12,437 bases of DNA from a virus. Taxonomy: Duplodnaviria > Heunggongvirae > Uroviricota > Caudoviricetes. The notes below the pieces were generated by a model, which was not told the origin of the DNA, made no database searches, and saw nothing but the letters and a program-made list of their open reading frames with translations. Every line of letters starts with the position of its first letter. The stretch's first letter is position 1. The stretch lies in IMG/VR virus record IMGVR_UViG_2671180415_000014. The stretch is one strand, 5' to 3'. Both the position numbers and the translations under genes were made by a program. Positions 1 through 12,437 of the stretch are shown in pieces.

Positions 1-201
1 CTACATATAGTGCTATATACAGGGCTATATAACGATATATAGATGCTTGGTCACATGGTGTAACTATCAAACCACTTAACAATTTCCTACGTGAAAGTTA
101 GAAAGTGATGGTTACAGTTACCCTCCTAAAATCTTCATAGTTGATTCGGTTAGTTGGGCTTGTACCAACCCCTAATCAACCTCATAGCTCCTTCATAACC
201 A

Positions 202-227
202 GTCTTAAAAGGACTTCCTTTTGAGAC
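202..227. promoter_or_regulatory. 26-bp imperfect palindrome with 12-2-12 architecture (gtcttaaaagga-ct-tccttttgagac); candidate serine-recombinase crossover site or operator
   Basis: Read directly: the two 12-bp half-sites are reverse complements at 11 of 12 positions around a 2-bp centre, the same geometry as hix/gix/cix-type sites. Sequence similarity to canonical hix half-sites is only partial. Confidence 0.35.
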
Positions 228-232
228 ACTTT

Positions 233-262
233 CAACGTAACGGTAGAATGCACCCTCAAGTA
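233..262 (+). repeat. 30-bp direct repeat, copy 1 (caacgtaacggtagaatgcaccctcaagta), abutting the left edge of an N-masked block
   Basis: Exact 30/30 identity with 475-504. The copy ends exactly at the mask boundary, so the true repeat may be longer. Confidence 0.9.
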
Positions 263-474
263 NNNNNNNNNNNNNNNNNNNNNNNNNNNNNNNNNNNNNN
301 NNNNNNNNNNNNNNNNNNNNNNNNNNNNNNNNNNNNNNNNNNNNNNNNNNNNNNNNNNNNNNNNNNNNNNNNNNNNNNNNNNNNNNNNNNNNNNNNNNNN
401 NNNNNNNNNNNNNNNNNNNNNNNNNNNNNNNNNNNNNNNNNNNNNNNNNNNNNNNNNNNNNNNNNNNNNNNNNN

Positions 475-504
475 CAACGTAACGGTAGAATGCACCCTCA
501 AGTA
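475..504 (+). repeat. 30-bp direct repeat, copy 2, abutting the right edge of the N-masked block
   Basis: Exact identity with 233-262 at a 242-bp offset. Its left neighbour is masked, so the repeat may extend further. Confidence 0.9.
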
Positions 505-530
505 GTCTCAAAAGGTTGTTTTTGGATTAT
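505..530. promoter_or_regulatory. Second candidate recombination/operator site: a half-site (gtctcaaaagg) matching the 202-227 palindrome, followed by a degenerate partner half (tttttggattat)
   Basis: 505-515 is the exact reverse complement of 217-227. The partner half loosely resembles the GGTTTTTGATAA-type hix/gix half-site. It lies about 50 bp upstream of the recombinase start. Confidence 0.25.
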
Positions 531-566
531 GAGACAGCTAAGCTTATGAGACTAACTTTTGAGACT
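527..566 (+). repeat. Three direct copies of a tNtgagac motif (527-535, 545-553, 558-566) just upstream of the recombinase start
   Basis: Read directly. The same gagac/gtctc core occurs in the half-sites at 202-227 and 505-515. Possible protein-binding sites. Confidence 0.3.
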
Positions 567-581
567 TCTAAGGGGAACATT

Positions 582-1133
582 ATGGCGATACTTGGATATT
601 GCAGGGTGAGTACAGATGACCAATCCATCACTAACCAGCAAATGCAAATTGAAGAGGCAGGGTACAACATTGCTAAATGGTTCGCTGATGAAGCTGTCAG
701 TGGTTCTGTCAAAGCTTCTTTAAGAAACGGTTTCAGCAGTTTGTTAGCTTATGCACGAGAAGGTGACACCGTAGTTGTGGTAGCTGTAGACCGTCTTGGA
801 CGTGACACAATTGATGTGTTATCAACGGTTAAAGCGCTACAGGCTAAAGGTGTGACAGTTATCAGCCTTAGAGAAGGATTTGACTTATCAAGCGCTATGG
901 GTGAAGCAATGTTAGGCATTATGTCAACGTTGGCACAGCTTGAAAGAAGCTTGATAGCAGAGCGTAGAAAGGCTGGTATTGAACGTGCTAAAGCTGAAGG
1001 GGTACATATGGGAAGACCTGTAAAAGCTTCTTCAGAGGCTGTACAGATGCTTATTTCACAAGGTAAAACGAGGTTGCAGATTCAGGAAGAGCTAGGAATC
1101 TCTAGAGCAACTTATTACAGACTTGCTAAATAA
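582..1133 (+). CDS. Small serine recombinase, DNA invertase/resolvase family (Hin/Gin/Cin/Pin-like), 183 aa
   Basis: N-terminus MAILGYCRVSTDDQS carries the catalytic-serine motif; VDRLGRD motif present; C-terminal GRP...ISRATYYRLA matches the resolvase-type HTH. RBS aagggga sits 6-7 nt upstream of the ATG at 582. The six-frame ORF beginning at 516 is an upstream read-through. Confidence 0.85.
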   Translation: MAILGYCRVSTDDQSITNQQMQIEEAGYNIAKWFADEAVSGSVKASLRNGFSSLLAYAREGDTVVVVAVDRLGRDTIDVLSTVKALQAKGVTVISLREGFDLSSAMGEAMLGIMSTLAQLERSLIAERRKAGIERAKAEGVHMGRPVKASSEAVQMLISQGKTRLQIQEELGISRATYYRLAK

Positions 1134-1501
1134 GTTACTGAATAGTTACATGGATGTAGCTGATATTTGGCTTTTTTGCCAAGGGGGTCACATAGCTGGT
1201 GTGACGGGTACTAAACACGTATACATCATGAGGTAGATTCTACCGAATCAACTAGACAGATATTTTCGAAGATTCGGGGAAGATGAGATTCAAAGAGGGC
1301 TAGTCATTTTTTATAAAAATTTTCAGACTCTGAAAAGTTACTGTACAGAATATATACAGATATCTTTAAAGTATCTGTAAAAACTTTTAAGATAAAAGAT
1401 AGATATCCCAGAAAGGATATCCGTTTAGAAAACCTGTTAAGCATCTCTTAAAAGAGAGTAAACCTTGTCAAGAGTGATTGCAATAAAAATTTTTATTTCT
1501 T

Positions 1502-2164
1502 ATGTCAATTGAGCATATTTTAATCGGGAAGCATCATGGGGGTTCTGATTACTGGAGAACTCCATTTTTGTTATTTAAGAACTTACACCGTGAATTTATT
1601 TTCAGTCTAGATGGTGCTGCAACTGAGCATGACACGCTGTTACCACGATTCACCGATGATATAAGCCGTCAATCATGGGTTAGTGAAAAGGTCTTCTGTA
1701 ACCCGCCGTACAGCGATATTCCGTCGTTCCTCTTAAAAGCGTCTGAAGCGGATTTAGTAGCTTTCCTGATACCGCATAGAGCCAACACCAGCTACTGGCT
1801 TAGGCACATTTACAGCAATAACCACTGTCATGAAATCCGTATTCTTCATCGTGCAGTTAAATACCTTCCACCAGCAGGCCATAACGGGCTTACTATTCGT
1901 TCACCGTTTCCTAGTGCAGTCGTTGTTTTTAAAAAAGAACCACGTAAGCACGAAATTACACAGACGGTTTGCTGTGGTGACACGCTATTACCGTTAACCA
2001 TCATTAACAGAGGAGGCTTGAGAGGAAGACCCACCATTTACCCACCTGAGACGCTCGACAGCTTCATAAAACTATACAGGCAAGGAAAACCCATTAAGTG
2101 CATTGCAGATGCTCTCAGAATGCCTCTGAGCACGTCATACAGGATTGCTCAAAGGTTGAGCTAA
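1502..2164 (+). CDS. Phage-type DNA N6-adenine methyltransferase with a C-terminal resolvase-like HTH extension, 220 aa
   Basis: WRTP...FSLDGAAT...FCNPPYS contains the (D/N)PPY motif typical of small phage N6A methyltransferases. The C-terminal roughly 60 aa (GRPTIYPPETLDSFIKLYRQGKPIKCIADALRMPLSTSYRIAQRL) parallels the recombinase HTH (GRP...QGKT..IQEELGISRATYYRLA). No obvious Shine-Dalgarno before the ATG. Confidence 0.7.
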   Translation: MSIEHILIGKHHGGSDYWRTPFLLFKNLHREFIFSLDGAATEHDTLLPRFTDDISRQSWVSEKVFCNPPYSDIPSFLLKASEADLVAFLIPHRANTSYWLRHIYSNNHCHEIRILHRAVKYLPPAGHNGLTIRSPFPSAVVVFKKEPRKHEITQTVCCGDTLLPLTIINRGGLRGRPTIYPPETLDSFIKLYRQGKPIKCIADALRMPLSTSYRIAQRLS

Positions 2165-2546
2165 AATTCTCATAAATATGGTCATTTACAAGATAGGTGA
2201 TTCAGATATTAAGAAGTATCCCTGTGAACAATAAATGACCAATCAGTAATTATTCTGTGAAATAATTGTTGCAATTTATAATCACATCTGTTATAGTTTT
2301 TATATGGGGTGATAAAAGAACTCAGAACATTAAGAGGTTACAACGTTGGGAGGCGTCAGGGTATTGACAGATTTTCACGGCCTCTTATTCAATCAAGGCT
2401 TTTCCTTTTGCTGTTAATACTCGCGTAATCGCTCAGGCTTCTGAGTTCCTTTATCAGTCCATCTTCTAATTAATTCACTCCCTCTGGGGTTGGTCACTAT
2501 ACGTGGTCAGCCCTTTCTTTGTTTTATTTTTAAAAAGGAAAATATA

Positions 2547-3368
2547 ATGGAAAAATTCCACATGTTTGATGACCGTATTTATCAGATGACTAATGGCGTT
2601 AAAGCTGCCGACCGTATTATTTACACTGTCATGTTGAATGAACAAAAGTTTTATCACGATAAGGGGCAATATTATACCCCTTCATATGCTCATCTTGGTC
2701 AGTATGCTGGAATCACAAGAACATCCGTGATTGCATGTATGAAACAACTTGAGGCACATGGTTTAATCAAGAAAACTAACGTTGCAAGCAATCAGTGTGT
2801 TATTAAAGTTTATTCACTTGATGAAGTACCGGAGGTTTTAACAGAGCTTACAGCTAAGGAAGCCAGAAAGGCAAAGCTGGAGTCTAAAGTTACTCAGTCA
2901 GTCAAGAAAGATGACCCACTGAGTCAAAATTCTTTACCCACTGAGTCAAAATTTTTTACTCAGTCAGTCAAAATCTTTGACACGTATAATAACAGTAATA
3001 ACAAGAAAGAACTTATTAATAACAATAAAGAAGATGACTTTGAAGAAGAATATTTTAAGAAGGGAGCTTCGCTCTGTGATTCACATGAATGTGATTCTCT
3101 TGGTATTGAAGAGGCTATTAAAGAGACTGTTNNNNNNNNNNNNNNNNNNNNNNNNNNNNNNNNNNNNNNNNNNNNNNNNNNNNNNNNNNNNNNNNNNNNN
3201 NNNNNNNNNNNNNNNNNNNNNNNNNNNNNNNNNNNNNNNNNNNNNNNNNNNNNNNNNNNNNNNNNNNNNNNNNNNNNNNNNNNNNNNNNNNNNNNNNNNN
3301 NNNNNNNNNNNNNNNNNNNNNNNNNNNNNNNNNNNNNNNNNNNNNNNNNNNNNNNNNNNNNACTTTGA
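2547..3368 (+). CDS. Phage replication initiator (lambda O-like / replisome organizer) with winged-HTH N-terminal domain; 3' part N-masked
   Basis: RBS aaaaggaa then ATG at 2547. N-terminal domain with HTH-like segment YAHLGQYAGITRTSVIACMKQLEAHGLIKK. Iterons and an AT-rich tract lie inside the coding region as in lambda O. The frame runs into the mask at 3132-3361 and the in-frame stop is at 3366-3368; the true 3' end is uncertain. Confidence 0.6.
   Translation: MEKFHMFDDRIYQMTNGVKAADRIIYTVMLNEQKFYHDKGQYYTPSYAHLGQYAGITRTSVIACMKQLEAHGLIKKTNVASNQCVIKVYSLDEVPEVLTELTAKEARKAKLESKVTQSVKKDDPLSQNSLPTESKFFTQSVKIFDTYNNSNNKKELINNNKEDDFEEEYFKKGASLCDSHECDSLGIEEAIKETVXXXXXXXXXXXXXXXXXXXXXXXXXXXXXXXXXXXXXXXXXXXXXXXXXXXXXXXXXXXXXXXXXXXXXXXXXXXXXL
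2891..2978 (+). repeat. Four tandem 22-bp iterons (agtcaa core at 2900, 2922, 2944, 2966); putative replication origin
   Basis: Units tactcagtcagtcaagaaagat / gacccactgagtcaaaattctt / tacccactgagtcaaaattttt / tactcagtcagtcaaaatcttt, with an exact 22-bp period. Outer pair and inner pair are each near-identical. Confidence 0.8.
2979..3060 (+). promoter_or_regulatory. AT-rich tract immediately after the iterons; candidate DNA-unwinding element of the origin
   Basis: The run acacgtataataacagtaataacaagaaagaacttattaataacaataaagaagatgac is strongly A/T-rich and directly follows the iterons, the lambda ori-type arrangement. Confidence 0.5.
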
Positions 3369-3474
3369 TGATAGTGACGATGATTTTACTTTTACACCAA
3401 AAAAGAAAACTCACACCGAGCCAAAGAAAGAAAAAGTTAAAGTCAGACGTGTTTATGGTGGAGGAATGTTTTAA
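3362..3474 (+). CDS. 3' end of a coding frame emerging from the masked block (FDDSDDDFTFTPKKKTHTEPKKEKVKVRRVYGGGMF); either the C-terminus of the initiator or a gene starting inside the mask
   Basis: Open in frame +1 relative to the initiator frame. Its stop TAA overlaps the next ATG (TAATG at 3472-3476), typical translational coupling. The start is hidden by the mask. Confidence 0.35.
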
Positions 3475-3770
3475 TGAAAACTTATAATGGCGAGAGAAAA
3501 TACCGTGACTATTTACTCAGACGTTACAGCATTTCTCGTGAAGGTTACTTGATGAAAGATACTCACGGGGAAGTTTACCGGATTCGACCGAAGAAAGAAG
3601 GGAGGGATTATTATTTCGTCGATGATGTGACAGATTTAAAGATTGACGCTTTGAAGTTTGCGGTGCTGTATCATTACGATTTATGGGATTCAGTCCACCA
3701 GCTACGATTAAAAGACGGTGACCCCGGTAATCTGAGGGCCACCAATATTATCAAGGGAAAGTGCCGGTAA
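3474..3770 (+). CDS. Hypothetical protein, 98 aa
   Basis: ATG overlaps the upstream stop; ggtggagga lies 8 nt upstream. No family recognised by eye. Confidence 0.5.
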   Translation: MKTYNGERKYRDYLLRRYSISREGYLMKDTHGEVYRIRPKKEGRDYYFVDDVTDLKIDALKFAVLYHYDLWDSVHQLRLKDGDPGNLRATNIIKGKCR

Positions 3771-3779
3771 GGCCACCAG

Positions 3780-3956
3780 CTATTTATTTACTGAAATCTC
3801 TATCTCAACACGAAGAAGTTTAAGTCGAATTGTAAGCTTTGTCTTTTTTGTAATGACTCGATTCATAACGCAAAACACCAATAGCACAATAAATACCGCA
3901 AAGCCCAACGAGCTAAAACGATGAGATTCAATAATTGCTGTGAAAAAATCATGCAT
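3780..3956 (-). CDS. Small single-pass membrane protein, 58 aa, on the opposite strand
   Basis: Minus-strand ATG at 3954-3956 preceded by aaaggaaa. Hydrophobic stretch LGFAVFIVLLVFCVM followed by basic residues. Convergent with the upstream plus-strand gene. The longer ORF to 3986 would need a GTG start. Confidence 0.4.
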   Translation of the reverse strand: MHDFFTAIIESHRFSSLGFAVFIVLLVFCVMNRVITKKTKLTIRLKLLRVEIEISVNK

Positions 3957-4093
3957 TAATTTTCCTTTTGTGAAAGGAAACAGCACCTGTATCAGCCCCT
4001 ACAACCATAGTATCATGTAAATGAGGTACTGACAATATGTTAAATAGATGTTAAGATTGTAGTATGAGTAAGAGATTTAAGGAGATTTTTACA

Positions 4094-4384
4094 ATGACTC
4101 ACACAGTTACGCGCCTTTTGCCAGAGGCATTTGAACGACTGGCAGCAATCAAAGCCAAATATCCCGATATGAAGCACACAGCGCTTGTTGGGGAGATTTT
4201 AAAAGAGTCGGTAAACCTTAGCCCTTTCGATAACGTTAAGGGCGTCGCAGAGGGTTCTAAGGCCATCAGAATCACAACGGGCCAACTGGAACTACTCAAA
4301 GCACAGTCCGCAGTAGCAGGTTGCTCAATGATTCAGGTGTTAAGCGCTAAGGTCCATCAACTGGCGGATAGATTGGAGGTTTAA
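4094..4384 (+). CDS. Hypothetical protein, 96 aa (possible small DNA-binding regulator)
   Basis: Strong RBS taaggag 9 nt upstream of the ATG at 4094; stop overlaps the next start. The sequence is faintly ribbon-helix-helix-like, which is a weak impression only. Confidence 0.5.
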   Translation: MTHTVTRLLPEAFERLAAIKAKYPDMKHTALVGEILKESVNLSPFDNVKGVAEGSKAIRITTGQLELLKAQSAVAGCSMIQVLSAKVHQLADRLEV

Positions 4385-4605
4385 TGTGTTATAGGTTCCA
4401 ATATTCCACACTTGGCCGCCACCTAATCAGACAGAATTTAGCAGATGCTGAATTTGAAGATGTGACCCTCAAAGCAAACAAACGATTAAAACCCTCTCAA
4501 ATCCACCAGCTTAAACACGAATTAAAGCCACTGGTAATACTCGACTATAACGACCCTGAACAGCTTGAGCAGGGAATTAAGCTTATTTCTGAATGGGGTG
4601 CTTGA
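4384..4605 (+). CDS. Hypothetical protein, 73 aa
   Basis: TAATG stop/start overlap with the upstream gene, preceded by ggagg. Its stop TGA overlaps the next ATG at 4605. Confidence 0.45.
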   Translation: MCYRFQYSTLGRHLIRQNLADAEFEDVTLKANKRLKPSQIHQLKHELKPLVILDYNDPEQLEQGIKLISEWGA

Positions 4606-4847
4606 TGAAAACNNNNNNNNNNNNNNNNNNNNNNNNNNNNNNNNNNNNNNNNNNNNNNNNNNNNNNNNNNNNNNNNNNNNNNNNNNNNNNNNNNNNNNNN
4701 NNNNNNNNNNNNNNNNNNNNNNNNNNNNNNNNNNNNNNNNNNNNNNNNNNNNNNNNNNNNNNNNNNNNNNNNNNNNNNNNNNNNNNNNNNNNNNNNNNNN
4801 NNNNNNNNNNNNNNNNNNNNNNNNNNNNNNNNNNNNAACGTTTTTAA
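4605..4847 (+). CDS. Hypothetical protein, about 80 aa, almost entirely N-masked
   Basis: ATGA overlap with the upstream stop (4603-4607). The frame exits the mask and stops at 4845-4847. Content cannot be assessed. Confidence 0.3.
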   Translation: MKXXXXXXXXXXXXXXXXXXXXXXXXXXXXXXXXXXXXXXXXXXXXXXXXXXXXXXXXXXXXXXXXXXXXXXXXXXXXRF

Positions 4848-4939
4848 GCCCCTAATCAGGGTAACTTAGGGAATCGCCTTAAGTGGTCTAAAAAAGGGGT
4901 TAAAACGTCTTAGAATGCGATACAGGAAGGATTTTAAAA

Positions 4940-5245
4940 ATGAATTACCCAATGCAAATTATGGTTGACCAAGAAACCATGAATTGGTTGATTGACCTGA
5001 ACAGGTCGGGCTTTAATATCTATTTCATGCATTGTTTTGAAGCGTCAACGTATATTGACAAGCATATAATCAACGAAATTAAACTTGGTGACTATGTTCA
5101 CAAGCTGGAAGTAACAGACCCATACAATAAGCGCTTTATCATTGAAGAGTGCAATCGACTTGATTTAAGCCCTGAGCAATTATTGAAGCTGAATGTATTC
5201 TTGACCTATCAGAATGAATTAAACCCTTACAGCGAGGTGATGTAA
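4940..5245 (+). CDS. Hypothetical protein, 101 aa
   Basis: RBS aggaagg 9 nt upstream of the ATG at 4940. No family recognised. Confidence 0.5.
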   Translation: MNYPMQIMVDQETMNWLIDLNRSGFNIYFMHCFEASTYIDKHIINEIKLGDYVHKLEVTDPYNKRFIIEECNRLDLSPEQLLKLNVFLTYQNELNPYSEVM

Positions 5246-5322
5246 TGACACTCGTTATTCTCTGGATGACTTTAGGGTTATTTGTTGGTTGCTGGGTAGG
5301 TAATACGGTAAATAAGAATTGA
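5245..5322 (+). CDS. Very small hydrophobic peptide, 25 aa (MTLVILWMTLGLFVGCWVGNTVNKN)
   Basis: TAATG overlap with the upstream stop; gaggtg lies 5 nt upstream. A single hydrophobic helix-length segment. Too short for the supplied ORF track. Confidence 0.3.
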   Translation: MTLVILWMTLGLFVGCWVGNTVNKN

Positions 5323-5346
5323 TGTTACCAATCTGTTAAAAAGCTG

Positions 5347-5375
5347 TTGACAAATAACCTTAAGCATGAGATGAT
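5347..5375 (+). promoter_or_regulatory. Candidate sigma70-type promoter (TTGACA, 17-bp spacer, GATGAT)
   Basis: Perfect -35 hexamer at 5347-5352 and a 4/6 -10 at 5370-5375, in the intergenic gap upstream of the gene that starts within or near the next mask. Confidence 0.3.
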
Positions 5376-5382
5376 GGTAATA

Positions 5383-5399
5383 GGGAAGAGCAACTCTTC
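5383..5399. promoter_or_regulatory. 17-bp perfect palindrome ggaagag-caa-ctcttcc just downstream of the putative -10; candidate operator
   Basis: Read directly: 7-bp arms are exact reverse complements around a 3-bp centre. Confidence 0.3.
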
Positions 5400-5756
5400 C
5401 TGAATTAAACTATTAATCATTCTACATCAATGATAGTTATTCTGAAAGGTGCAATGCTTTTCGCTACATGACCTTTCAGGTNNNNNNNNNNNNNNNNNNN
5501 NNNNNNNNNNNNNNNNNNNNNNNNNNNNNNNNNNNNNNNNNNNNNNNNNNNNNNNNNNNNNNNNNNNNNNNNNNNNNNNNNNNNNNNNNNNNNNNNNNNN
5601 NNNNNNNNNNNNNNNNNNNNNNNNNNNNNNNNNNNNNNNNNNNNNNNNNNNNNNNNNNNNNNNNNNNNNNNNNNNNNNNNNNNNNNNNNNNNNNNNNNNN
5701 NNNNNNNNNNNNNNNNNNNNNNNNNNNNNNNNNNNNNNNNNNNNNNNNNNNNNNNN

Positions 5757-6439
5757 AAGTGATTGATAGCTTCAGTGACTGGTCGCCACAGACTGAACAT
5801 CCAGCTATCACTATTCAGCGTAAAGAGCATGACAAGCGTATTGAGCTTGAGCAATCGCTAAAGATGTCACCAAAAACAACCATCTTTGTGTCTCCTGAGC
5901 CTCAAGAGATGCCTGATATTTGCAAGAGTGAAGCATTACTTGAGCTTGAAAAGAAATATTACCAACTGCTGAAAGAACAGCGCCTTAGATTAGATGACGC
6001 TTACAGCAAAGTTACCTTGATGCAATCAGCTATTGAGCCGTCAGAATTTGAGATTCAGGATGAATTGTCACAGAAACCATTTGTCTATTACCAATACGAA
6101 GATAATGATGGTTTTGGTACTTTTCAAGAAAACGTCGCAGCCGTGATTAGTAGTCTTCCTGCTGGACATCGAATTGTGAAGATGGTTAAGGCATCAAGAG
6201 GTGCTGGTCAGTTTATTTACATGACTAATAAGAGCGATGAAGAACTCGCTGAAATTGCTAGACAGAACATCTTGGCATCACGTAACAAGCAACTTGATAA
6301 TGTTAAGTTGTATCTCTCAAGAGAGCTTCAGGCTATGAAAGAGCTTGTGAAAGAATATGAAGATGCTAAGAAGATTGCTATGCAGGCTGATATTGAGCAG
6401 CTTACGAAGATTTCTAGCAAATATGCAAAGGCTATTTAA
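5757..6439 (+). CDS. Hypothetical phage protein; only the C-terminal 227 aa are visible, the start is in or before the masked block 5482-5756
   Basis: Long open frame with coding-like composition ending at TAA 6437-6439. First gene after the putative promoter. No family recognised. Confidence 0.55.
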
Positions 6440-6463
6440 TTAATAATTAAAAGGTGGTGGTGA

Positions 6464-6670
6464 ATGATTGATTTAACAGAACGCTATGAGCTTATTAAAG
6501 CAATTAGTGAACGATTGAAAGAACAACCCAACAAACCAAAACGAATCAAATCATTCACCTCCTCTAAGCAAAAGAATAGAATCAGGAAAATAGCTAAGTG
6601 GTGTCTTGATAAATTACCAAGTGATTGTCAGATTGTTGGTGAAGATGGTAATTATTATCTGGTTAGGTAA
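6464..6670 (+). CDS. Hypothetical protein, 68 aa
   Basis: RBS aggtgg 6 nt upstream of the ATG at 6464. Basic, lysine-rich middle region. Confidence 0.45.
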   Translation: MIDLTERYELIKAISERLKEQPNKPKRIKSFTSSKQKNRIRKIAKWCLDKLPSDCQIVGEDGNYYLVR

Positions 6671-6768
6671 CAAGATTGGTTGGGTGAAAATCTACGGGAG
6701 AGATTATCGAGTGATATCGGTAGTCTTTCCCTTTTTCGTATATGAACACTTAAAGAGGTGAAACATGA

Positions 6769-8949
6769 ATGAGCAAATTCACAGTTGATAGTTTTATCGT
6801 TGAACTTAGTTTCAGTGAAAACGTTATTAAGGGCTTGCAAAGAGTTGAAAAGGCAGCTTTGCAGTCAGCACAAAGAATTGAACGCAATTTGAATAGAGCG
6901 TTTAAGGTCGATACCAAGCAACTTGACAGCAATCTGACAAGTTCTTTAGGGCAGCTTGAAAGGAAGTTTAATAAGACCTTTGACAAGATTGAGCAGAGAG
7001 CAAGAAGCACAAAAGCATTTCAGTTTGCCACCAGATTTAATGACACTGTTAATCCTCCAAAACAATCAAGGCAACCACGAATTAGCGGAAACAGAGCAAT
7101 CACAGCAGCGCATAGCGTGAATATGTCTAAGCTTGGTGATATTAATCCGCTGATGGCTAAAATGTTTAAAGCACAGTATTACAGCTTAAGCGGTAAGGCT
7201 GGTAATATTGGAAGTGAAAAGTTTAACGCTGAACTTGCAAAATTAAATCAATCTCTTCGTGAAACGTTGAATAAACTCAGGTCACAGACAAAGACCGCCA
7301 GCATTAACAATACAAGCGACGCATTTAATAATCTTGCAAGCAATGCGATTAAATTATCTGGTGCATTTTACTCTGTGATGGGTGCTCTTAACGCTTACAA
7401 GGCCATTATGAATGCAGGTCTTAAACGAGATTCCGCACAGAGAGCCGCTAAGTTTGTACTTGGTGATAAAGCATCTGAAGCTGAGGTATTTATTCGAAAT
7501 TTAGCAGACAAGACAGGTCTTAATATCTCTGAAGGGCTATCAAGCTACGCTAAGTTTGCAGCAGGTGCTCAGGGTTCTATGTCACAGGAACAGACACAGG
7601 AGCTATTTGGTAATGCAACGGCTATGAGTCGCTTAATGGGGCTTTCTAACGATGAGCTAAACGGCATTTTGAGAGCATTTGAGCAGATGGCGAGCAAGGG
7701 CAAGATTCAGGCTGAGGAATTACGTGGGCAGTTAGGTGACCGTATGGCTGGTGCATTTAAGCTATTCGCTGAAGCATTGGGTATGACTGCTACAGAGCTT
7801 GATGCAGCCATGAAAAACGGGAAGGTACTTTCCGCTGATACTCTCCCTAAAGTCGCTAAACAGATGGGCTTGATGATTGATAAAGCGGGTGGCTGGGCTG
7901 AAGTCACTAAGAGCACTCAGACAGCTTTAGGTAAGTTAGCAAACAATTGGGATGATACGATGGTGAAAATCTTCTCAGGTTCACAGGATGAGCTAAACGG
8001 CTTCTTATCCAGCCTGAGTAACCTGCTTAGTGAAATGGGGATGAGTTCTTCTATCGCTGGTGATGCTATCGGTGGACTTATCGACATGCTTAAAGCTGGT
8101 GTAGATGATATTCGCGTATTCAATAACACCATTGAAGGCTGGATTTTACAGACTAAGAAGTTCTATTACAGCCTTGATGACACTAAACGAAAACTACTTG
8201 ATGAAGTCGGTGATGGTTTTATCAACTTCGTCAAAGGTCTTGCTATAGCGTTATCTGCAAAGACGCTATTCAGTGCTACTACAGGGGTTATGAACCTGAC
8301 AAGAGCAATCACAACGTTAGGTACAAGAGCTAATCAGGTGGCTGGTCAGGTAGCTACTGGTAAAGGTGGTGGAAAACTGAAAGGTGTAGCTGGTGGTGTA
8401 GGTAGTGCTCTTGCAATTGGTTATGCTGATGACGGTTATGAAACAGCGTTAGCATTAGCTTCAATGATTCCACAAATCAGAGGCGTCACTCTTGGTTTAT
8501 ATGCATTGAAGAAAGCACTGGATTTTATGAATCAGGAAGTAGTCAAAAACGCTAATATGCATCCGTCTGGGGTAGGTGTGGGTAGTGACTTTAATCCCGT
8601 GTATTCTGGTGACCCTAATAAACCGAATATGATTAACGAAGGATGGAGTAGAATTTTTAGTTCAATGGGTGAATTGTTTAACAATGCCACAATGAATATT
8701 GCAAGATTCAATCATCCAGAGTTAAACAACATTAAGCAAGATTCAGCATTAACGAGTGCAGATATTCAGGGTCTGAGGGATGAAATTAGTGCTTTGAGTA
8801 AGCGTATTCAGGAGCCAGTGAAAGTTTCACTTGGTGGTCAAGTTGTCGTTCGACCAGATGAACCATCTTTCTTTACTTTCAATCAATCAGCTAATGACCA
8901 GTTCACGCAGGATATGCTCTTAAGTTCAAGCTATCCAGAGGAAGAATGA
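6769..8949 (+). CDS. Phage tail tape measure protein, 726 aa
   Basis: RBS agaggtg 8 nt upstream. Long helical N-terminal part; the segment LRAFEQMASKGKIQAEELRGQLGDRMAGAFKLFAEALGMTATELDAAMKNGKVLSADTLPKVAKQMG matches my recollection of the conserved tape-measure domain; glycine-rich hydrophobic segment GGGKLKGVAGGVGSALAIGYA. Size fits a tape measure. Confidence 0.75.
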   Translation: MSKFTVDSFIVELSFSENVIKGLQRVEKAALQSAQRIERNLNRAFKVDTKQLDSNLTSSLGQLERKFNKTFDKIEQRARSTKAFQFATRFNDTVNPPKQSRQPRISGNRAITAAHSVNMSKLGDINPLMAKMFKAQYYSLSGKAGNIGSEKFNAELAKLNQSLRETLNKLRSQTKTASINNTSDAFNNLASNAIKLSGAFYSVMGALNAYKAIMNAGLKRDSAQRAAKFVLGDKASEAEVFIRNLADKTGLNISEGLSSYAKFAAGAQGSMSQEQTQELFGNATAMSRLMGLSNDELNGILRAFEQMASKGKIQAEELRGQLGDRMAGAFKLFAEALGMTATELDAAMKNGKVLSADTLPKVAKQMGLMIDKAGGWAEVTKSTQTALGKLANNWDDTMVKIFSGSQDELNGFLSSLSNLLSEMGMSSSIAGDAIGGLIDMLKAGVDDIRVFNNTIEGWILQTKKFYYSLDDTKRKLLDEVGDGFINFVKGLAIALSAKTLFSATTGVMNLTRAITTLGTRANQVAGQVATGKGGGKLKGVAGGVGSALAIGYADDGYETALALASMIPQIRGVTLGLYALKKALDFMNQEVVKNANMHPSGVGVGSDFNPVYSGDPNKPNMINEGWSRIFSSMGELFNNATMNIARFNHPELNNIKQDSALTSADIQGLRDEISALSKRIQEPVKVSLGGQVVVRPDEPSFFTFNQSANDQFTQDMLLSSSYPEEE

Positions 8950-8961
8950 TTTAACGGTGTT

Positions 8962-9014
8962 CTACGTGAATAAAGCAAAGTTAATACCCACACCAAAAAT
9001 TATTTTTCACGTAG
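8962..9014. promoter_or_regulatory. Inverted repeat ctacgtgaa ... ttcacgtag (9-13 bp arms, about 35-bp spacer) after the tape-measure gene
   Basis: Read directly. Not followed by a T-run, so not a canonical intrinsic terminator. Confidence 0.3.
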
Positions 9015-9044
9015 CTCACGCTTAACAGAGAAAATACATATATA

Positions 9045-9850
<806 letters not shown>

Positions 9851-10000
9851 TTTGGCATCCATCTCCGATCACAGTTTGGCATCACAATCGATCACGATTT
9901 GGCATACTTCCGATCATTGATTGGAATTCGCCAGTCACTCCGGGAATTAACTCTTTTCACCACAGTCTCCATTGCCGTGTTTAAACCAGTGGAGACGTCA

Positions 10001-11566
10001 ATGTCCAAAAAGAGAAAATCCAGGAGCACTATGGAAACTTGTTTTAAGATCCTTCAGCTCAAGTTCGATAAGAAGCTGACTAACCGTTGTATCGGACTGA
10101 CGTTACACATCAGCGCCTCAACCGTTTTTGAGGTTCTTGCCCGCTTCAAAGCCTCTTCTCTGTCATGGCCATTACCTGCGGATATATCCCATGACACGCT
10201 GGAGAAACTCATTTTCCCGCCCAAAGACACCTCTGCGTCAGAGCTTGTTATGCCTGACATGCTGTACTTCGATACGGAAATGAGAAAACCTGGCGTGACG
10301 CGCCAACTGTTGTGGATGGAATACAAGGCACAGGCGGGTGACAAAGCGATGGGATACTCACACTTCTGCCGTTGCTACCGGAAGTGGAAAAAAACGCGAC
10401 GCCTCTCCATGCGACAGGAGCATCGTGCTGGCGAAAAGCTCTTTATCGACTTCTGTGGTCCTACGGTCCCTGTTATTAATCCGGACACCGGAGAGATACG
10501 CCGCGTGGCAATCTTCGTGGCTGTAATGGGGGCGTCCAACTATACCTATGTTGAAGCGTGCGAAGGTCAGGACATGATGTCATGGTTAAATGCCCACAGC
10601 CGTTGCCTGACCTTCCTGGGCGGCGTACCGAAGCTGCTCATCCCCGATAACCTCAGAAGCGCAGTGAAAAAAGCCGATCGCTATGAGCCTGTCATCAACG
10701 ACAGTTATCAGGCGCTGGCTGAGCACTATGGCACGGTTATTATCCCGGCCCGCCCGCGCAAACCTAAAGATAAACCAAAAGCAGAAAACGGCGTCCTCAT
10801 CGTCGAGCGATGGCTTCTTGCCCGCATCCGTAATGAAACCTTCCACACGCTCAGGGCGCTGAATGCACGCCTTCGGGAGTTGCTGACGGACATGAATAAC
10901 CGACCAATGAAGGGATACGGTAATCAAACCCGCGCAGAACGCTTCCGCATGCTGGATGCACCAGCACTCTCTCCGCTGCCTCTGGAGCCTTATGAATACA
11001 CGGAATACAAAGCCGTGAAGGTTGGCCCTGACTACCACGTTGAATATGCCCGTCACTGGTACTCCGTTCCACACGAACTGGTCGGTCAGCGTCTGTCACT
11101 GAAGGTGGGGCAGTCGGTGGTACAGCTCTGGCACAAGGGGCAGTGTGTGGCGCAACATCCGCGCAGCACACATGAATATAAACACACAACCAATCCGCTT
11201 CACATGCCAGAACGCCACCGGCGGCATGGGACATGGACACCGGAACGCCTTATCGAGCAGGGAAACCGTACAGGTCCGTCCACAGGCCGGGTGGTTGAAT
11301 CCATGCTGAAAGCCAAACCCCATCCGGAGCTGGCTTACCGTGCAGTCCTGGGTCTGCTGGCACTTCAGAAAAAATACGGCCCGGAACGGCTGGAAAAGGC
11401 CTGTTACGTTGCCCTGCACTATAACGCCCCGGACAGACGCTTTATCGACAATCTGCTGCGTCATCATCGGGATAACGTTGAGCTTCCGTTATCCCGCCAG
11501 GGCGAACAACATCCGGCATATGCTTCAGAGCATGAAAACCTGCGTGGTCCTGGCTACTACCACTGA
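10001..11566 (+). CDS. istA: IS21-family transposase IstA, 521 aa
   Basis: RBS ggaga 5 nt upstream of the ATG at 10001; N-terminal HTH region; long DDE-type core; followed 16 bp later by istB. The ORF-track start at 9899 lies inside the terminal repeats and is unlikely. Confidence 0.85.
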   Translation: MSKKRKSRSTMETCFKILQLKFDKKLTNRCIGLTLHISASTVFEVLARFKASSLSWPLPADISHDTLEKLIFPPKDTSASELVMPDMLYFDTEMRKPGVTRQLLWMEYKAQAGDKAMGYSHFCRCYRKWKKTRRLSMRQEHRAGEKLFIDFCGPTVPVINPDTGEIRRVAIFVAVMGASNYTYVEACEGQDMMSWLNAHSRCLTFLGGVPKLLIPDNLRSAVKKADRYEPVINDSYQALAEHYGTVIIPARPRKPKDKPKAENGVLIVERWLLARIRNETFHTLRALNARLRELLTDMNNRPMKGYGNQTRAERFRMLDAPALSPLPLEPYEYTEYKAVKVGPDYHVEYARHWYSVPHELVGQRLSLKVGQSVVQLWHKGQCVAQHPRSTHEYKHTTNPLHMPERHRRHGTWTPERLIEQGNRTGPSTGRVVESMLKAKPHPELAYRAVLGLLALQKKYGPERLEKACYVALHYNAPDRRFIDNLLRHHRDNVELPLSRQGEQHPAYASEHENLRGPGYYH

Positions 11567-11582
11567 CAGAAGGAACAACCGT

Positions 11583-12338
11583 ATGAGTGATAATCTGTTA
11601 AACAAACTGACCCAACTGAAACTCCCGGCGATGGCCGGGAGCCTGATACGGCAACGGGAAACGCCTCAGACTTACGACGAACTGTCGTTCGAGGAAAGGC
11701 TGACACTGCTGGTTGATGACGAGCTTCTGAGCAGAGAAAACAGTCGTGTGGCACGGTTGAGAAAAAATGCCTGCCTGAAATATCAGGCAACACCGGAAGG
11801 GCTGCGTTATCCGGCCTCAAGAGGTCTGCGGGCTGAACAGATGAGGGAACTGCTGAACGGCCACTACATAATCCACAGGAAAAACCTACTGATAACCGGT
11901 CCGACAGGATGCGGTAAGAGCTGGATAGCCAATGCGCTGGGCGAACAGGCATGTCGACAGAAATACAGCGTCCGGTACTGTAGAACCGGGCGATTACTGG
12001 AACAGTTGGCTCAGGGACGTGTTGATGGCAGTTGGCTGAAATATCTGAAACAGTTGCAAAAAATACAGGTTCTAATCCTGGACGATCTGGGGCTGGAACA
12101 GTTAAGTAACGCCCAGTGTAATGACCTTCTGGAGATCACAGAGGATCGTTACGGACAAAGCAGCACGATAGTGGTAAGCCAGTTCCCGGTAGATAAATGG
12201 CATGGTCTGATGGAGAACCCAACAACAGCAGATGCCATCCTGGACAGACTGGTACATAACTCACACAGAGTGGTCCTTCAGGGAGAGTCCCTGAGGAAAA
12301 ATCCCCCGACAGTGGAAAGCAGCGAAAAAACGAGTTAA
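11583..12338 (+). CDS. istB: IS21-family ATP-binding helper protein IstB, 251 aa
   Basis: Walker A GPTGCGKS and Walker B VLILDDLG; RBS aggaa 7 nt upstream. The ORF-track start at 11340 overlaps istA in another frame and is unlikely. Confidence 0.85.
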   Translation: MSDNLLNKLTQLKLPAMAGSLIRQRETPQTYDELSFEERLTLLVDDELLSRENSRVARLRKNACLKYQATPEGLRYPASRGLRAEQMRELLNGHYIIHRKNLLITGPTGCGKSWIANALGEQACRQKYSVRYCRTGRLLEQLAQGRVDGSWLKYLKQLQKIQVLILDDLGLEQLSNAQCNDLLEITEDRYGQSSTIVVSQFPVDKWHGLMENPTTADAILDRLVHNSHRVVLQGESLRKNPPTVESSEKTS

Positions 12339-12364
12339 AAAGCGGTAGAAAAAGTTAAGTTCCC

Positions 12365-12430
12365 GGTTGATCGAATGGATGCGAATCGCTGATCGAACTT
12401 CGATGCCAATCCGTGATCGAATAGAGCGGA
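12365..12430 (-). repeat. IS right-end repeats (tgatcgaa / atgccaat units), inverted relative to the left-end repeats
   Basis: Three copies of tgatcgaa at about 24-bp spacing, reverse-complementary to the cgatca...ttggcat units at the left end. Truncated by the window end. Confidence 0.6.
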
Positions 12431-12437
12431 ATACGCA

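What the first reader, a model, noticed from the sequence alone, without database searches (positions are those of the whole stretch)
2547..3474. Replication origin embedded in the initiator gene: four exact-period 22-bp iterons plus an AT-rich tract
Iteron cores recur at exactly 22 bp (two helical turns), followed by an AT-rich stretch, all inside the open reading frame of a wHTH protein. This is the lambda O / ori arrangement and marks the element as once self-replicating. The coding frame after the mask is shifted relative to the frame before it, so the gene may be frameshifted or a second gene may start within the mask.
Basis: partly seen in the sequence, partly recalled or inferred. Interest (0 to 1): 0.5.

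Follow-up and report, generated by a model that had tools for sequence, protein, structure and literature searches.

The report
Replication origin inside its initiator gene
A gene on a small Shigella/E. coli chromosomal island encodes a DNA-binding replication starter whose own binding sites and DNA-melting tract lie in the middle of that gene, an arrangement known from phage lambda and staphylococcal plasmids; the island itself looks like an undescribed parasite of Felix-O1-type phages.

Summary
Four repeats at exactly 22-bp spacing (cores 2900-2982) are followed by the least stable, most AT-rich 40-mer of the whole 12-kb locus (2984-3023). Both lie inside one winged-helix gene (2547-3474).

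The suspected frameshift is a masking artefact. Relatives with 100% identical flanks hold 256 nt where the window has 230 N, and carry an intact 317-aa ORF.

In 49 unique homologues the N-terminal domain, iterons and AT tract form three discrete cassettes (A, B, C). Each cassette has its own four semi-palindromic, A-tract-centred iterons at the same gene position, as in lambda O. The C-terminal half is mosaic.

I read it as an iteron-type origin plus cognate initiator (confidence 0.8; no experiment exists). It is a new member of a known kind.

In passing: the island has zero GATC sites, carries tail genes up to 92% identical to Felixounavirus, and in intact copies a large serine recombinase. 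It may be a PLE-like satellite of Felix-O1-like phages.

The parts
2547..3474 (+). rep gene. It is masked at 3132-3361. The true length is 954 nt, 317 aa, in relatives with identical flanks.
   Evidence: ORF and translation. The intact ORF L006:5048-6001 has 100% identical flanks. PHROG replication-initiator hits.
2547..2876 (+). N-terminal extended winged-helix DNA-binding domain (aa 1-110), predicted to recognise the iterons.
2900..2916 (+). iteron 1, AGTCAAGAAAGATGACC
2922..2938 (+). iteron 2, AGTCAAAATTCTTTACC
2944..2960 (+). iteron 3, AGTCAAAATTTTTTACT
2966..2982 (+). iteron 4, AGTCAAAATCTTTGACA. Its core GTCAAA-ATC-TTTGAC is a perfect inverted repeat.
2983..3052 (.). AT-rich tract, the candidate DNA-unwinding element. 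It encodes an N/K-rich linker.
   Evidence: 82% AT over 40 nt and 77% over 70 nt. It contains the least stable 40-mer of the 12.3-kb locus. GC is 25% in the composition profile.
3053..3474 (+). Coding region for the acidic C-terminal half, which is mosaic among relatives. The nearly invariant block LD(D)FDD(S)DDDF...PKKK is visible at 3364-3408. Presumed partner-recruitment region.
   Evidence: Variability profile. Conservation over 49 unique proteins. Alignment A1.
3474..3770 (+). 98-aa gene whose ATG overlaps the rep stop codon. It follows rep in every homologous locus. No family match; function unknown.
2486..2514 (+). Terminator-like hairpin plus T-run, ending about 30 nt before the rep ATG, in the 380-nt intergenic region between Dam and rep.
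   Evidence: L006 4987-5015, equivalent to window 2486-2514

Best explanation
Window 2547-3474 is the replication module of a roughly 12-kb integrative island of Shigella sonnei and E. coli. It combines an initiator gene with its own origin in the middle of that gene.

Proposed mechanism:
1. Dimers of the N-terminal winged-helix domain bind the four 17-bp semi-palindromic, A-tract-centred iterons. These are spaced 22 bp apart, two helical turns, so they lie on one face of the helix.
2. The resulting bent nucleoprotein complex opens the adjacent 40-70-bp AT-rich tract.
3. The acidic C-terminal half, with its invariant LDDFDDSDDDF motif, recruits a helicase or primase. The island does not encode one, so it must come from the host or from a helper phage.

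The stretch of protein encoded by the origin is a linker. The N-terminal domain, iterons and AT tract form one specificity cassette that exists in three interchangeable versions.

What is shown: the sequence anatomy, the conservation and co-variation, the fold, and the family-level homology to initiators. What is inferred: binding, melting, partner recruitment and the timing of firing.
For: Anatomy and statistics:
- Four iterons against 0.02 expected.
- Palindromic cores.
- The least stable 40-mer of the locus directly abuts iteron 4.

The signal is in the DNA, not the peptide:
- The 22-bp period puts the four iterons in codon phases 2, 0, 1, 2, so the same DNA is read as QSVK, LSQN, TESK, QSVK.

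Comparative evidence, from 56 full-length genes (49 unique) in E. coli genomes and gut metagenomes:
- The genes fall into three N-terminal types that are 36-45% identical to each other.
- Each type has its own four iterons at gene nt about 347-436, spaced 22/22/22, 22/23/23 or 23/23/22, followed by 82-85% AT.
- There are no cross-type iterons.
- Within a type the first roughly 500 nt are nearly invariant, while the 3' half is highly variable.
- More distant relatives (21-37% identity) show 15-aa peptide repeats at the same central position, equal to 45 nt or 22+23.

Protein evidence:
- All three types hit PHROG replication-initiator families at E 1e-7 to 1e-12.
- 17 of 30 distant relatives hit Pfam HTH_36.
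- The AF2 model has pLDDT 91.
- Its best structural matches are PLE RepA-NTD (4RO3) and the RepA_N initiators 4PTA, 4PT7 and 5KBJ, then DnaD-NTD.

Literature criteria that are met:
[quoted passage not shown] - The annotated lambda record places four iterons at O-gene nt 349-433.
Against: - There is no experimental evidence of replication, binding or excision for this island family. Nothing was found in nine literature searches.
- No helicase, primase or loader gene lies in the island.
- No consensus DnaA box or IHF site lies near the tract.
- The Pfam initiator families Phage_rep_O and RepA_N are not hit, and DnaD_N is only sub-threshold.
- No rep homologue was found in 50,697 phage records by tblastn, and none in plasmids by megablast.
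- Because each cassette is almost invariant, extra constraint on the iterons relative to the neighbouring codons cannot be measured.
- The copy in this window sits in a decaying island, with an IS21-family insertion and a deletion in the tail gene, so it may never fire.
Confidence: 0.8

Rival explanations
1. The module is intact in sequence but no longer active in this Shigella sonnei copy. On this view it is a relic origin in a decaying island that can neither excise nor be mobilised.
For: - The window's island is interrupted from about 9800 by an IS21-family element (istA 9899-11566, istB 11340-12338).
- Its Dit-like tail gene lacks 74 nt relative to L001.
- No large serine recombinase lies within the window, whereas L001 has one at the island end.
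- S. sonnei relatives carry IS1 copies in and around the island.
Against: - Rep, the iterons, the AT tract and the downstream 98-aa gene are 100% identical to many S. sonnei genomes and form an intact ORF.
- Loss of mobility does not by itself stop Rep-dependent firing in situ.
- This reading concerns activity, not identity.
Confidence: 0.35
2. The repeats are operator sites only. The winged-helix protein would be a transcription factor, for example an autorepressor or roadblock, binding inside its own gene, with no origin function.
For: - Sub-threshold Pfam and PDB sequence matches are to Crp, MarR and SlyA-type regulators.
- No replisome-loading gene lies in the island.
- Initiators of iteron replicons often autoregulate through the same sites.
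Against: - PHROG hits are all replication-initiator families.
- The matches that cover more than 90 residues are PLE RepA, RepA_N and DnaD-NTD, not regulators.
- Four phased sites abutting the least stable DNA of the locus match origin anatomy.
- The position and number of sites match lambda and pSK41.
- No copy of the iteron lies in the promoter region or anywhere else in the window.
Confidence: 0.08
3. The repeats are a packaging (pac) or partition (centromere-like) site bound by the winged-helix protein.
For: Phased direct repeats bound by small DNA-binding proteins also occur at plasmid centromeres and at some pac sites. The island is probably packaged by a helper phage.
Against: - No ParA/ParM-type or terminase small-subunit gene lies in the island.
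- The protein's family and fold are those of initiators.
- An adjoining unwinding-prone tract is not a feature of such sites.
- No iteron-like sequence occurs in a Felix-O1-like phage genome of 88.8 kb.
Confidence: 0.04
4. The repeats are a coding-level peptide repeat or a slippage product with no function in the DNA.
For: They lie in a coding region that encodes a low-complexity linker.
Against: - A 22-bp period is not a multiple of 3, so the units are read in three different frames.
- Three unrelated iteron sequences occupy the same position in three cassette types, always in four copies.
- Each unit is an inverted repeat.
Confidence: 0.01

Closest known systems
RepA_N-type theta replicons of Gram-positive plasmids (pSK41, pTZ2162; the chimeric pPR9 Rep with a pfam13730 N-terminal domain)
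   Same: - Three-part initiator of the same size (317 aa here, 319 aa in pSK41).
- An N-terminal extended winged helix of about 110-120 aa binds four semi-palindromic, A-tract-centred repeats located centrally within its own gene.
- The central linker is encoded by the origin.
- The C-terminal part is lineage-specific.
- The N-terminal domain plus origin (about 500 bp) is exchanged as a cassette, as in pPR9 (PMC5703833).
   Different: - No sequence-level match to Pfam RepA_N.
- The closest Pfam family among relatives is HTH_36.
- It sits on an integrated enterobacterial island, not a plasmid.
- The C-terminal half is acidic, probably disordered and highly mosaic.
- No antisense-RNA control was identified.
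RepA and ori of the Vibrio cholerae phage satellite PLE
   Same: - It is also the second-best PDB sequence-profile hit (E 0.035).
- Both are on small chromosomal islands of Gammaproteobacteria that use a large serine recombinase (L001).
- Neither initiator has a helicase or primase domain.
- PLE replication needs its virulent myophage helper (PMC7145576).
   Different: - The PLE origin lies in a non-coding region, whereas here it lies inside rep.
- Sequence identity is only about 18-19%.
- Helper dependence is not shown here.
- The putative helper is a different phage group (Ounavirinae, not ICP1).
Phage lambda O protein and ori-lambda
   Same: - Four iterons with internal dyad symmetry and an A-rich centre lie at the same place in the gene (O nt 349-433, against about 347-436 across the three cassette types here), followed by an AT-rich tract.
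- The N-terminal domain binds the iterons, and the origin encodes the inter-domain linker.
- Lambdoid phages likewise swap the N-terminal domain and iterons together (own knowledge).
   Different: - No detectable sequence similarity to lambda O and no Phage_rep_O hit.
- No P-like helicase loader follows the gene. The downstream gene is an unrelated 98-aa ORF.
- The C-terminal half is unrelated.
Rep-ori modules of SaPIs and PICIs
   Same: An island-borne initiator with cognate iterons flanking or adjoining an AT-rich tract, fired after helper-phage induction (own knowledge; PMC6092414 listed).
   Different: SaPI and PICI Rep proteins carry helicase (and Pri primase) activities, and their origin lies downstream of rep, not inside it. 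No such domains occur here.

Membership tests
Lambda O family (Pfam Phage_rep_O) | Sequence similarity of the N-terminal domain to lambda O or the Phage_rep_O model | tested here: not met
   No Pfam hit at E<=0.1. hhalign probability 0.2 and BLASTP E 0.25 against lambda O. Only the generic 'O-like' PHROGs match.
Lambda O family (Pfam Phage_rep_O) | Four dyad-symmetric iterons plus an AT-rich tract in the middle of the initiator gene | tested here: met
   Gene nt about 347-436 across the three cassette types here (354-436 in type A), against 349-433 in lambda; 82% against 78% AT downstream.
Lambda O family (Pfam Phage_rep_O) | A P-type helicase loader encoded immediately downstream | tested here: not met
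   The downstream 98-aa protein has no Pfam or PHROG hit. No loader lies elsewhere in the island.
RepA_N initiators (Pfam PF06970) | Match to the RepA_N sequence model | tested here: not met
   No hit at E<=0.1 for types A, B or C. DnaD_N is sub-threshold (17.5-20.1 bits against a cut-off of 27).
RepA_N initiators (Pfam PF06970) | DnaD-NTD-like extended winged-helix fold of the N-terminal domain | tested here: met
   [not shown]
RepA_N initiators (Pfam PF06970) | [quoted passage not shown] | tested here: met
   Type A GTCAAA-ATC-TTTGAC, type B AACCA-GAATT-TGGTT, type C GTGACA-AAA-TGTCAC.
RepA_N initiators (Pfam PF06970) | The origin (four Rep boxes) is located centrally within rep, and the encoded segment is a linker (PMC5703833) | tested here: met
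   Position and number of sites. The encoded segment differs completely between types, and its iterons are read in three codon phases. Whether it is dispensable was not testable.
RepA_N initiators (Pfam PF06970) | The C-terminal domain contacts a host replication protein (DnaG in pSK41) | not testable with these tools
   Only a conserved acidic motif, LD(D)FDD(S)DDDF, was found.
Pfam HTH_36 (PF13730) phage/plasmid replication-protein N-terminal domains | Score above the gathering threshold | tested here: inconclusive
   Type C passes (27.9 against 25). Type B scores 18.1 and type A (this window) 12.9, both failing. 17 of 30 distant relatives found with the N-terminal profile match, best E 9e-20.
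Iteron-type theta origin (generic) | At least three phased direct repeats bound by the cognate initiator, next to an AT-rich unwinding element | tested here: met
   Sequence features are met. Binding and unwinding are not testable here.
Iteron-type theta origin (generic) | DnaA box(es) or an IHF site, as in many plasmid origins | tested here: not met
   No perfect TTWTNCACA and no IHF consensus in L006 4600-6400. Lambda also lacks this requirement.
PLE-like phage satellites | Small island with a large serine recombinase, a RepA-type initiator and no capsid or terminase genes | tested here: met
   In L001 the island spans about 11.9-23.6 kb and ends with a 546-aa large serine recombinase. The Rep fold matches PLE RepA. 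No head or packaging genes are present. The recombinase is not within this window.
PLE-like phage satellites | Excision, replication and transduction triggered by a specific helper phage | not testable with these tools
   Only indirect links to Felix-O1-like phages were found.

The most novel reading that the evidence does not exclude
The island is an undescribed family of PLE-like phage satellites in Escherichia and Shigella that parasitises virulent Felix-O1-like myophages (Ounavirinae). On this reading the rep-ori module examined here is its helper-triggered replicon. The three N-terminal-domain/iteron cassettes would act as incompatibility or specificity types. The hypervariable acidic C-terminal half would recruit the helper's, or the host's, helicase-primase.

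Supporting observations:
- The Rep N-terminal domain is structurally closest to PLE RepA.
- Intact copies carry a large serine recombinase.
- The tape-measure gene and the next tail gene are in phage order, and a 510-nt stretch is 92% identical to a Felixounavirus.
- A 58-nt stretch upstream of the Dam-rep genes is 86-88% identical to a phage intergenic region.
- GATC is completely absent from the island (0 against about 33 expected). The same holds for the phages examined (0 in 88.8 kb of one genome and in the first 50 kb of another).
Probability: 0.45. Interest if true: 0.8.

Novelty: new member of a known kind. Interest (0 to 1): 0.55.

Why it matters
The gene is annotated only as 'helix-turn-helix domain-containing protein' in the E. 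coli and Shigella records seen in these searches. About 150 of 5,426 complete E. coli genomes carry the module, and very many S. sonnei assemblies do (the adjacent 98-aa protein is indexed in 4,420 blocks of the assembly collection). Recognising it as an initiator with an embedded origin has several consequences:

- It defines the replicon of an uncharacterised mobile island.
- It gives three natural specificity cassettes for testing initiator-iteron recognition.
- It extends the RepA_N/PLE-RepA-type architecture, which the PLE paper describes as rare in Gram-negative bacteria, to Enterobacteriaceae.
- If the island is a satellite of Felix-O1-like phages, which are widely used for Salmonella and E. 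coli typing and biocontrol, the origin is where helper exploitation and possibly phage interference would act. The system would then be a tractable E. coli counterpart of PLE/ICP1.

Tried and rejected
- Megablast of the region against 50,697 phage and 72,556 plasmid records found nothing. tblastn of Rep against phages found nothing.
- An IMG/VR scan found nothing. The GTDB genome scan returned a single locus.
- Rfam gave no family in the window, so the long rep leader remains uncharacterised.
- Direct comparison with lambda O showed no similarity. Membership of the lambda O family is rejected.
- Single-sequence AlphaFold of the first 195 aa gave pLDDT 48 and was discarded. It was replaced by a model built on 30 distant relatives.
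- The PDB sequence-profile search gave only weak winged-helix regulator hits.
- Scans for DnaA boxes, IHF sites and GATC around the origin were negative.
- I tried to measure extra DNA-level constraint on the iterons within a cassette type. This was impossible because the whole 5' 500 nt is nearly invariant.
- The tail tape-measure and Dit-like genes first suggested a decayed prophage. I rejected that as the main reading because the island lacks head, terminase and lysis genes and keeps the same compact gene order in the related loci fetched.
- The PLE1 accession is not in the collections, so a gene-by-gene comparison with PLE was not possible.
- Nine literature searches found no description of this island or of satellites of Ounavirinae.
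Full report
**What is in the sequence**

The window is a Shigella sonnei-type copy of a roughly 12-kb chromosomal island (best protein hit P0001, S. sonnei, 99%). Its genes, in order, are:
- a small serine recombinase (516-1133);
- a Dam-family methyltransferase fused to an HTH (1502-2164);
- the gene in question (ATG 2547, stop 3474);
- a 98-aa gene whose start overlaps that stop (3474-3770);
- several small ORFs;
- a tape-measure gene (6769-8949);
- a damaged Dit-like tail gene;
- from about 9800, an IS21-family insertion.

The repeats are real. TRF reports a 22-bp array. The repeat finder reports four copies with spacing 22/22/22. The 14-mer consensus occurs four times in 12.4 kb, only here, against 0.02 expected.

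Re-registering the unit shows that each iteron is a 17-mer, AGTCAARA-N3-DTKAC, at 2900, 2922, 2944 and 2966. Its 15-bp core is an inverted repeat converging on an A/T tract. Self-complementarity is 8, 10, 12 and 12 of 15 positions, against a background of 3.6 +/- 2.3.

The 40 nt after iteron 4 are 82% AT. Window 2984-3023 is the least stable 40-mer in the whole 12.3-kb relative L006.

**The 'frameshift'**

In window coordinates the frame before the mask (from 2547) and after it (from 3364) differ by one. However, loci L006-L013 were found by exact look-up of the neighbouring 98-aa protein, and they are 100% identical to the window on both sides of three masks. They contain 256, 251 and 267 nt where the window has 230, 224 and 275 N.

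The masks therefore do not preserve length. In these loci the gene is a single intact ORF of 954 nt, 317 aa. It is likewise a single CDS of 311-330 aa in the eleven E. coli records fetched. There is no evidence for a frameshift or for a second gene start inside the mask.

**The signal is in the DNA, not the peptide**

A 22-bp period is not a multiple of three. The four iterons start in codon phases 2, 0, 1 and 2 and are translated differently. Selection for a peptide repeat cannot explain them.

**Comparative evidence**

The module occurs in about 150 of 5,426 complete E. coli genomes, always chromosomal and at more than one integration site: ymdF/wrbA in L001, next to yecN in L002 and L005. 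Together with 45 gut-metagenome loci, I analysed 56 full-length genes, 49 of them unique.
- They fall into only three N-terminal types (A, B, C), 36-45% identical to each other.
- Each type has its own four iterons at the same gene position (nt about 347-436). Type A is AGTCAAAAT..TTTGAC-like, spaced 22/22/22. Type B is AACCAGAATTTGGTT, spaced 22/23/23. Type C is GTGACAAAATGTCAC, spaced 23/23/22.
- Each array is followed by 82-85% AT.
- Iteron type and N-terminal type co-vary in 49 of 49 genes with no cross-type sites.
- Within a type the first roughly 500 nt (N-terminal domain, iterons and AT tract) are almost invariant. The 3' half is highly variable and mosaic.
- This is the pattern expected for a specificity cassette, a recognition domain plus its sites, joined to an exchangeable effector half.
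- Proteins only 21-37% identical in the N-terminal domain carry 15-aa repeats at the same central position, for example TVLKPEDYGSQT twice and VVPETT three times. That equals 45 nt, or 22+23. The arrangement therefore extends beyond these three types.
- One metagenomic copy (L028) has an in-frame 510-nt tandem duplication that gives eight iterons.

**What the protein is**

All three types match PHROG families annotated as replication initiation proteins, O-like initiators or DnaD-like loaders, at E 1e-7 to 1e-12.

Pfam gives no Phage_rep_O or RepA_N hit. DnaD_N is sub-threshold. HTH_36 passes its threshold only for type C. Direct comparison with lambda O is negative.

A profile of the N-terminal domain finds only 225 clusters among 1.84 billion representatives. 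Seventeen of 30 of these match HTH_36, and a few match DnaD_N, DnaB_2 or RP-C.

With those relatives as the alignment, AlphaFold gives a confident model of residues 1-110 (pLDDT 91, pTM 0.82).
- Ordinary winged-helix regulators align over only about 70-80 residues.
- 4RO3 is the N-terminal domain of RepA, the replication initiator of the Vibrio cholerae phage satellite PLE (PMC7145576).

**Comparison with known systems**

The arrangement is the one known from two paradigms.

In lambda, the annotated record places four iterons at O-gene nt 349-433 with spacing 20/24/23, each a dyad with an A-rich centre, followed by 78% AT. That is the same place and number as here.

[quoted passage not shown] The central domain encoded by the ori is a linker, and the C-terminal domain binds DnaG. 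The pPR9 initiator arose by swapping about 500 bp, the N-terminal domain plus origin, for a pfam13730-type domain (PMC5703833). RepA_N iterons are described as semi-palindromic repeats converging on a poly-A tract (PMC7145576).

The module studied here meets these architectural criteria and the fold criterion. It does not meet the sequence-model criterion of either family. I therefore file it as working like lambda O or RepA_N, and as a fold-level relative of RepA_N and PLE RepA. I do not file it as a sequence-defined member of either Pfam family.

**Mechanism proposed**

Steps 1-3 are inferred from anatomy and analogy, not shown.
1. Dimers of the N-terminal domain bind the four phased iterons.
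2. The bent complex opens the adjacent AT tract.
3. The acidic C-terminal half recruits a helicase or primase. Its best-conserved block is LD(D)FDD(S)DDDF followed by PKKK. From my own knowledge, this resembles the acidic C-terminal tip of SSB.

The island encodes no helicase, primase or loader. There is no DnaA box or IHF consensus nearby. Replication must therefore rely on host or helper-phage proteins, as PLE replication does.

**Context found in passing**

- The tape-measure protein is about 29% identical over its full length to those of Felix-O1-like myophages.
- The next gene (Dit-like) is 66% identical to the gene that follows the tape-measure gene in Mooglevirus Silverhawkium. It is 77-79% identical to Felixounavirus proteins, and 510 nt are 92% identical to phage pinkbiff.
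- A 58-nt stretch upstream of the island's Dam gene is 86-88% identical to a conserved phage intergenic region. In this window, 24 of 25 nt at 1384-1408 match.
- The island contains no GATC at all (0 observed, 31-33 expected). Neither does the whole 88.8-kb Silverhawkium genome, nor the 50 kb of pinkbiff examined. The chromosomal flank and the IS have normal counts.
- Intact copies end with a 546-aa large serine recombinase.
- Together with the PLE-RepA-like initiator, this suggests a PLE-like satellite of Ounavirinae. I found no paper describing one. This is a hypothesis, not a finding.

**Verdict**

The main interpretation, an origin embedded in its initiator gene, is well supported by anatomy, co-variation, family-level homology and fold, but it is untested experimentally. 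The frameshift idea is an artefact of masking.

The thing itself is a new member of a known kind. Its context may be considerably more novel.

Noticed in passing
window 1-9800; L007 2800-12297; phage loci L067+L068, L069: GATC is completely absent from the island (0 observed, 31-33 expected). The chromosomal flank (7 in 2.2 kb) and the IS21-family insert (13 in 2.6 kb) have normal counts. The Felix-O1-like phages Silverhawkium (88.8 kb) and pinkbiff (50 kb examined) also have zero GATC. The island nevertheless encodes a Dam-family methyltransferase (1502-2164), whose target is therefore unclear.
   Followed up: partly
window 6769-8949 and about 8950-9700; L001 18970-21940: The tape-measure gene and the following Dit-like tail gene are in the same order as in Ounavirinae phages. 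The TMP is about 29% identical. The Dit-like protein is 66-79% identical, with 510 nt 92% identical to Felixounavirus pinkbiff. There are no head, terminase or lysis genes, which suggests a satellite of Felix-O1-like phages.
   Followed up: partly
window 1384-1408 (58 nt in L001 12985-13042): A stretch upstream of the Dam-rep genes matches a conserved intergenic region of Silverhawkium (66211-66266) and pinkbiff (34846-34901) at 86-96% identity. It includes GATATC-type inverted repeats. It may be a shared regulatory site linking island expression to the phage.
   Followed up: partly
L001 21960-23603 (not in the window): Intact copies of the island end with a 546-aa large serine recombinase next to the integration site (wrbA side). 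Other copies sit next to yecN, so the family uses more than one site. Many metagenome contigs of 11.5-13.7 kb consist of the island alone.
   Followed up: partly
window 9800-12437: An IS21-family element (istA 9899-11566, istB 11340-12338) is inserted at the right end of the island. At its end are 23-bp tandem repeats (9807-9930, 4.3 copies), each containing GATC, probably the multiple terminal transposase-binding repeats typical of IS21.
   Followed up: no
window about 9250 and 9085-9850: The Dit-like tail gene lacks 74 nt relative to L001 (21315-21388). It is split into short ORFs and then cut by the IS, so the S. sonnei copy of the island is decaying.
   Followed up: partly
window 3053-3474; alignment of 49 unique proteins: The C-terminal half of Rep is acidic, probably disordered and highly mosaic between copies. 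Three blocks are nearly invariant: SDV..SD..T.C, TDDE and LD(D)FDD(S)DDDF..PKKK. The last resembles the acidic C-terminal tip of SSB (own knowledge) and could be a recruitment motif.
   Followed up: partly
window 2165-2546: A long 380-nt leader lies between Dam and rep. It has a promoter-like site (about 2269-2297), 38-nt inverted-repeat arms (2304-2341 and 2425-2462) and a terminator-like hairpin (2486-2514) just before the rep start. No Rfam family matches. It may be a regulated leader or an antisense-RNA target, as in pSK41.
   Followed up: partly
window 3474-3770: A 98-aa gene is translationally coupled to rep in every copy of the island. It has no Pfam, PHROG or phage match. Its sequence loosely recalls NUMOD4/HNH_3-type motifs (own impression, untested).
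   Followed up: partly
window 55-1160 against L006 2855-3680: The small serine recombinase (invertase-like, PHROG 125) at the left end is a replaceable cassette. It is unrelated at the DNA level and on the opposite strand in otherwise near-identical S. sonnei copies, and its orientation also varies among E. coli copies.
   Followed up: no
L028 (metagenome contig SKEP01004909.1) 2501-3994: One type A copy carries an in-frame 510-nt tandem duplication spanning the iterons, the AT tract and most of the C-terminal half. This gives eight iterons and a 497-aa protein. It may be a real variant or an assembly artefact.
   Followed up: no
window masks 263-474, 3132-3361, 4613-4836, 5482-5756: The runs of N do not preserve the length of the hidden sequence: 230, 224 and 275 N stand for 256, 251 and 267 nt in relatives with identical flanks. 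Reading frames cannot be carried across any mask in this window.
   Followed up: yes
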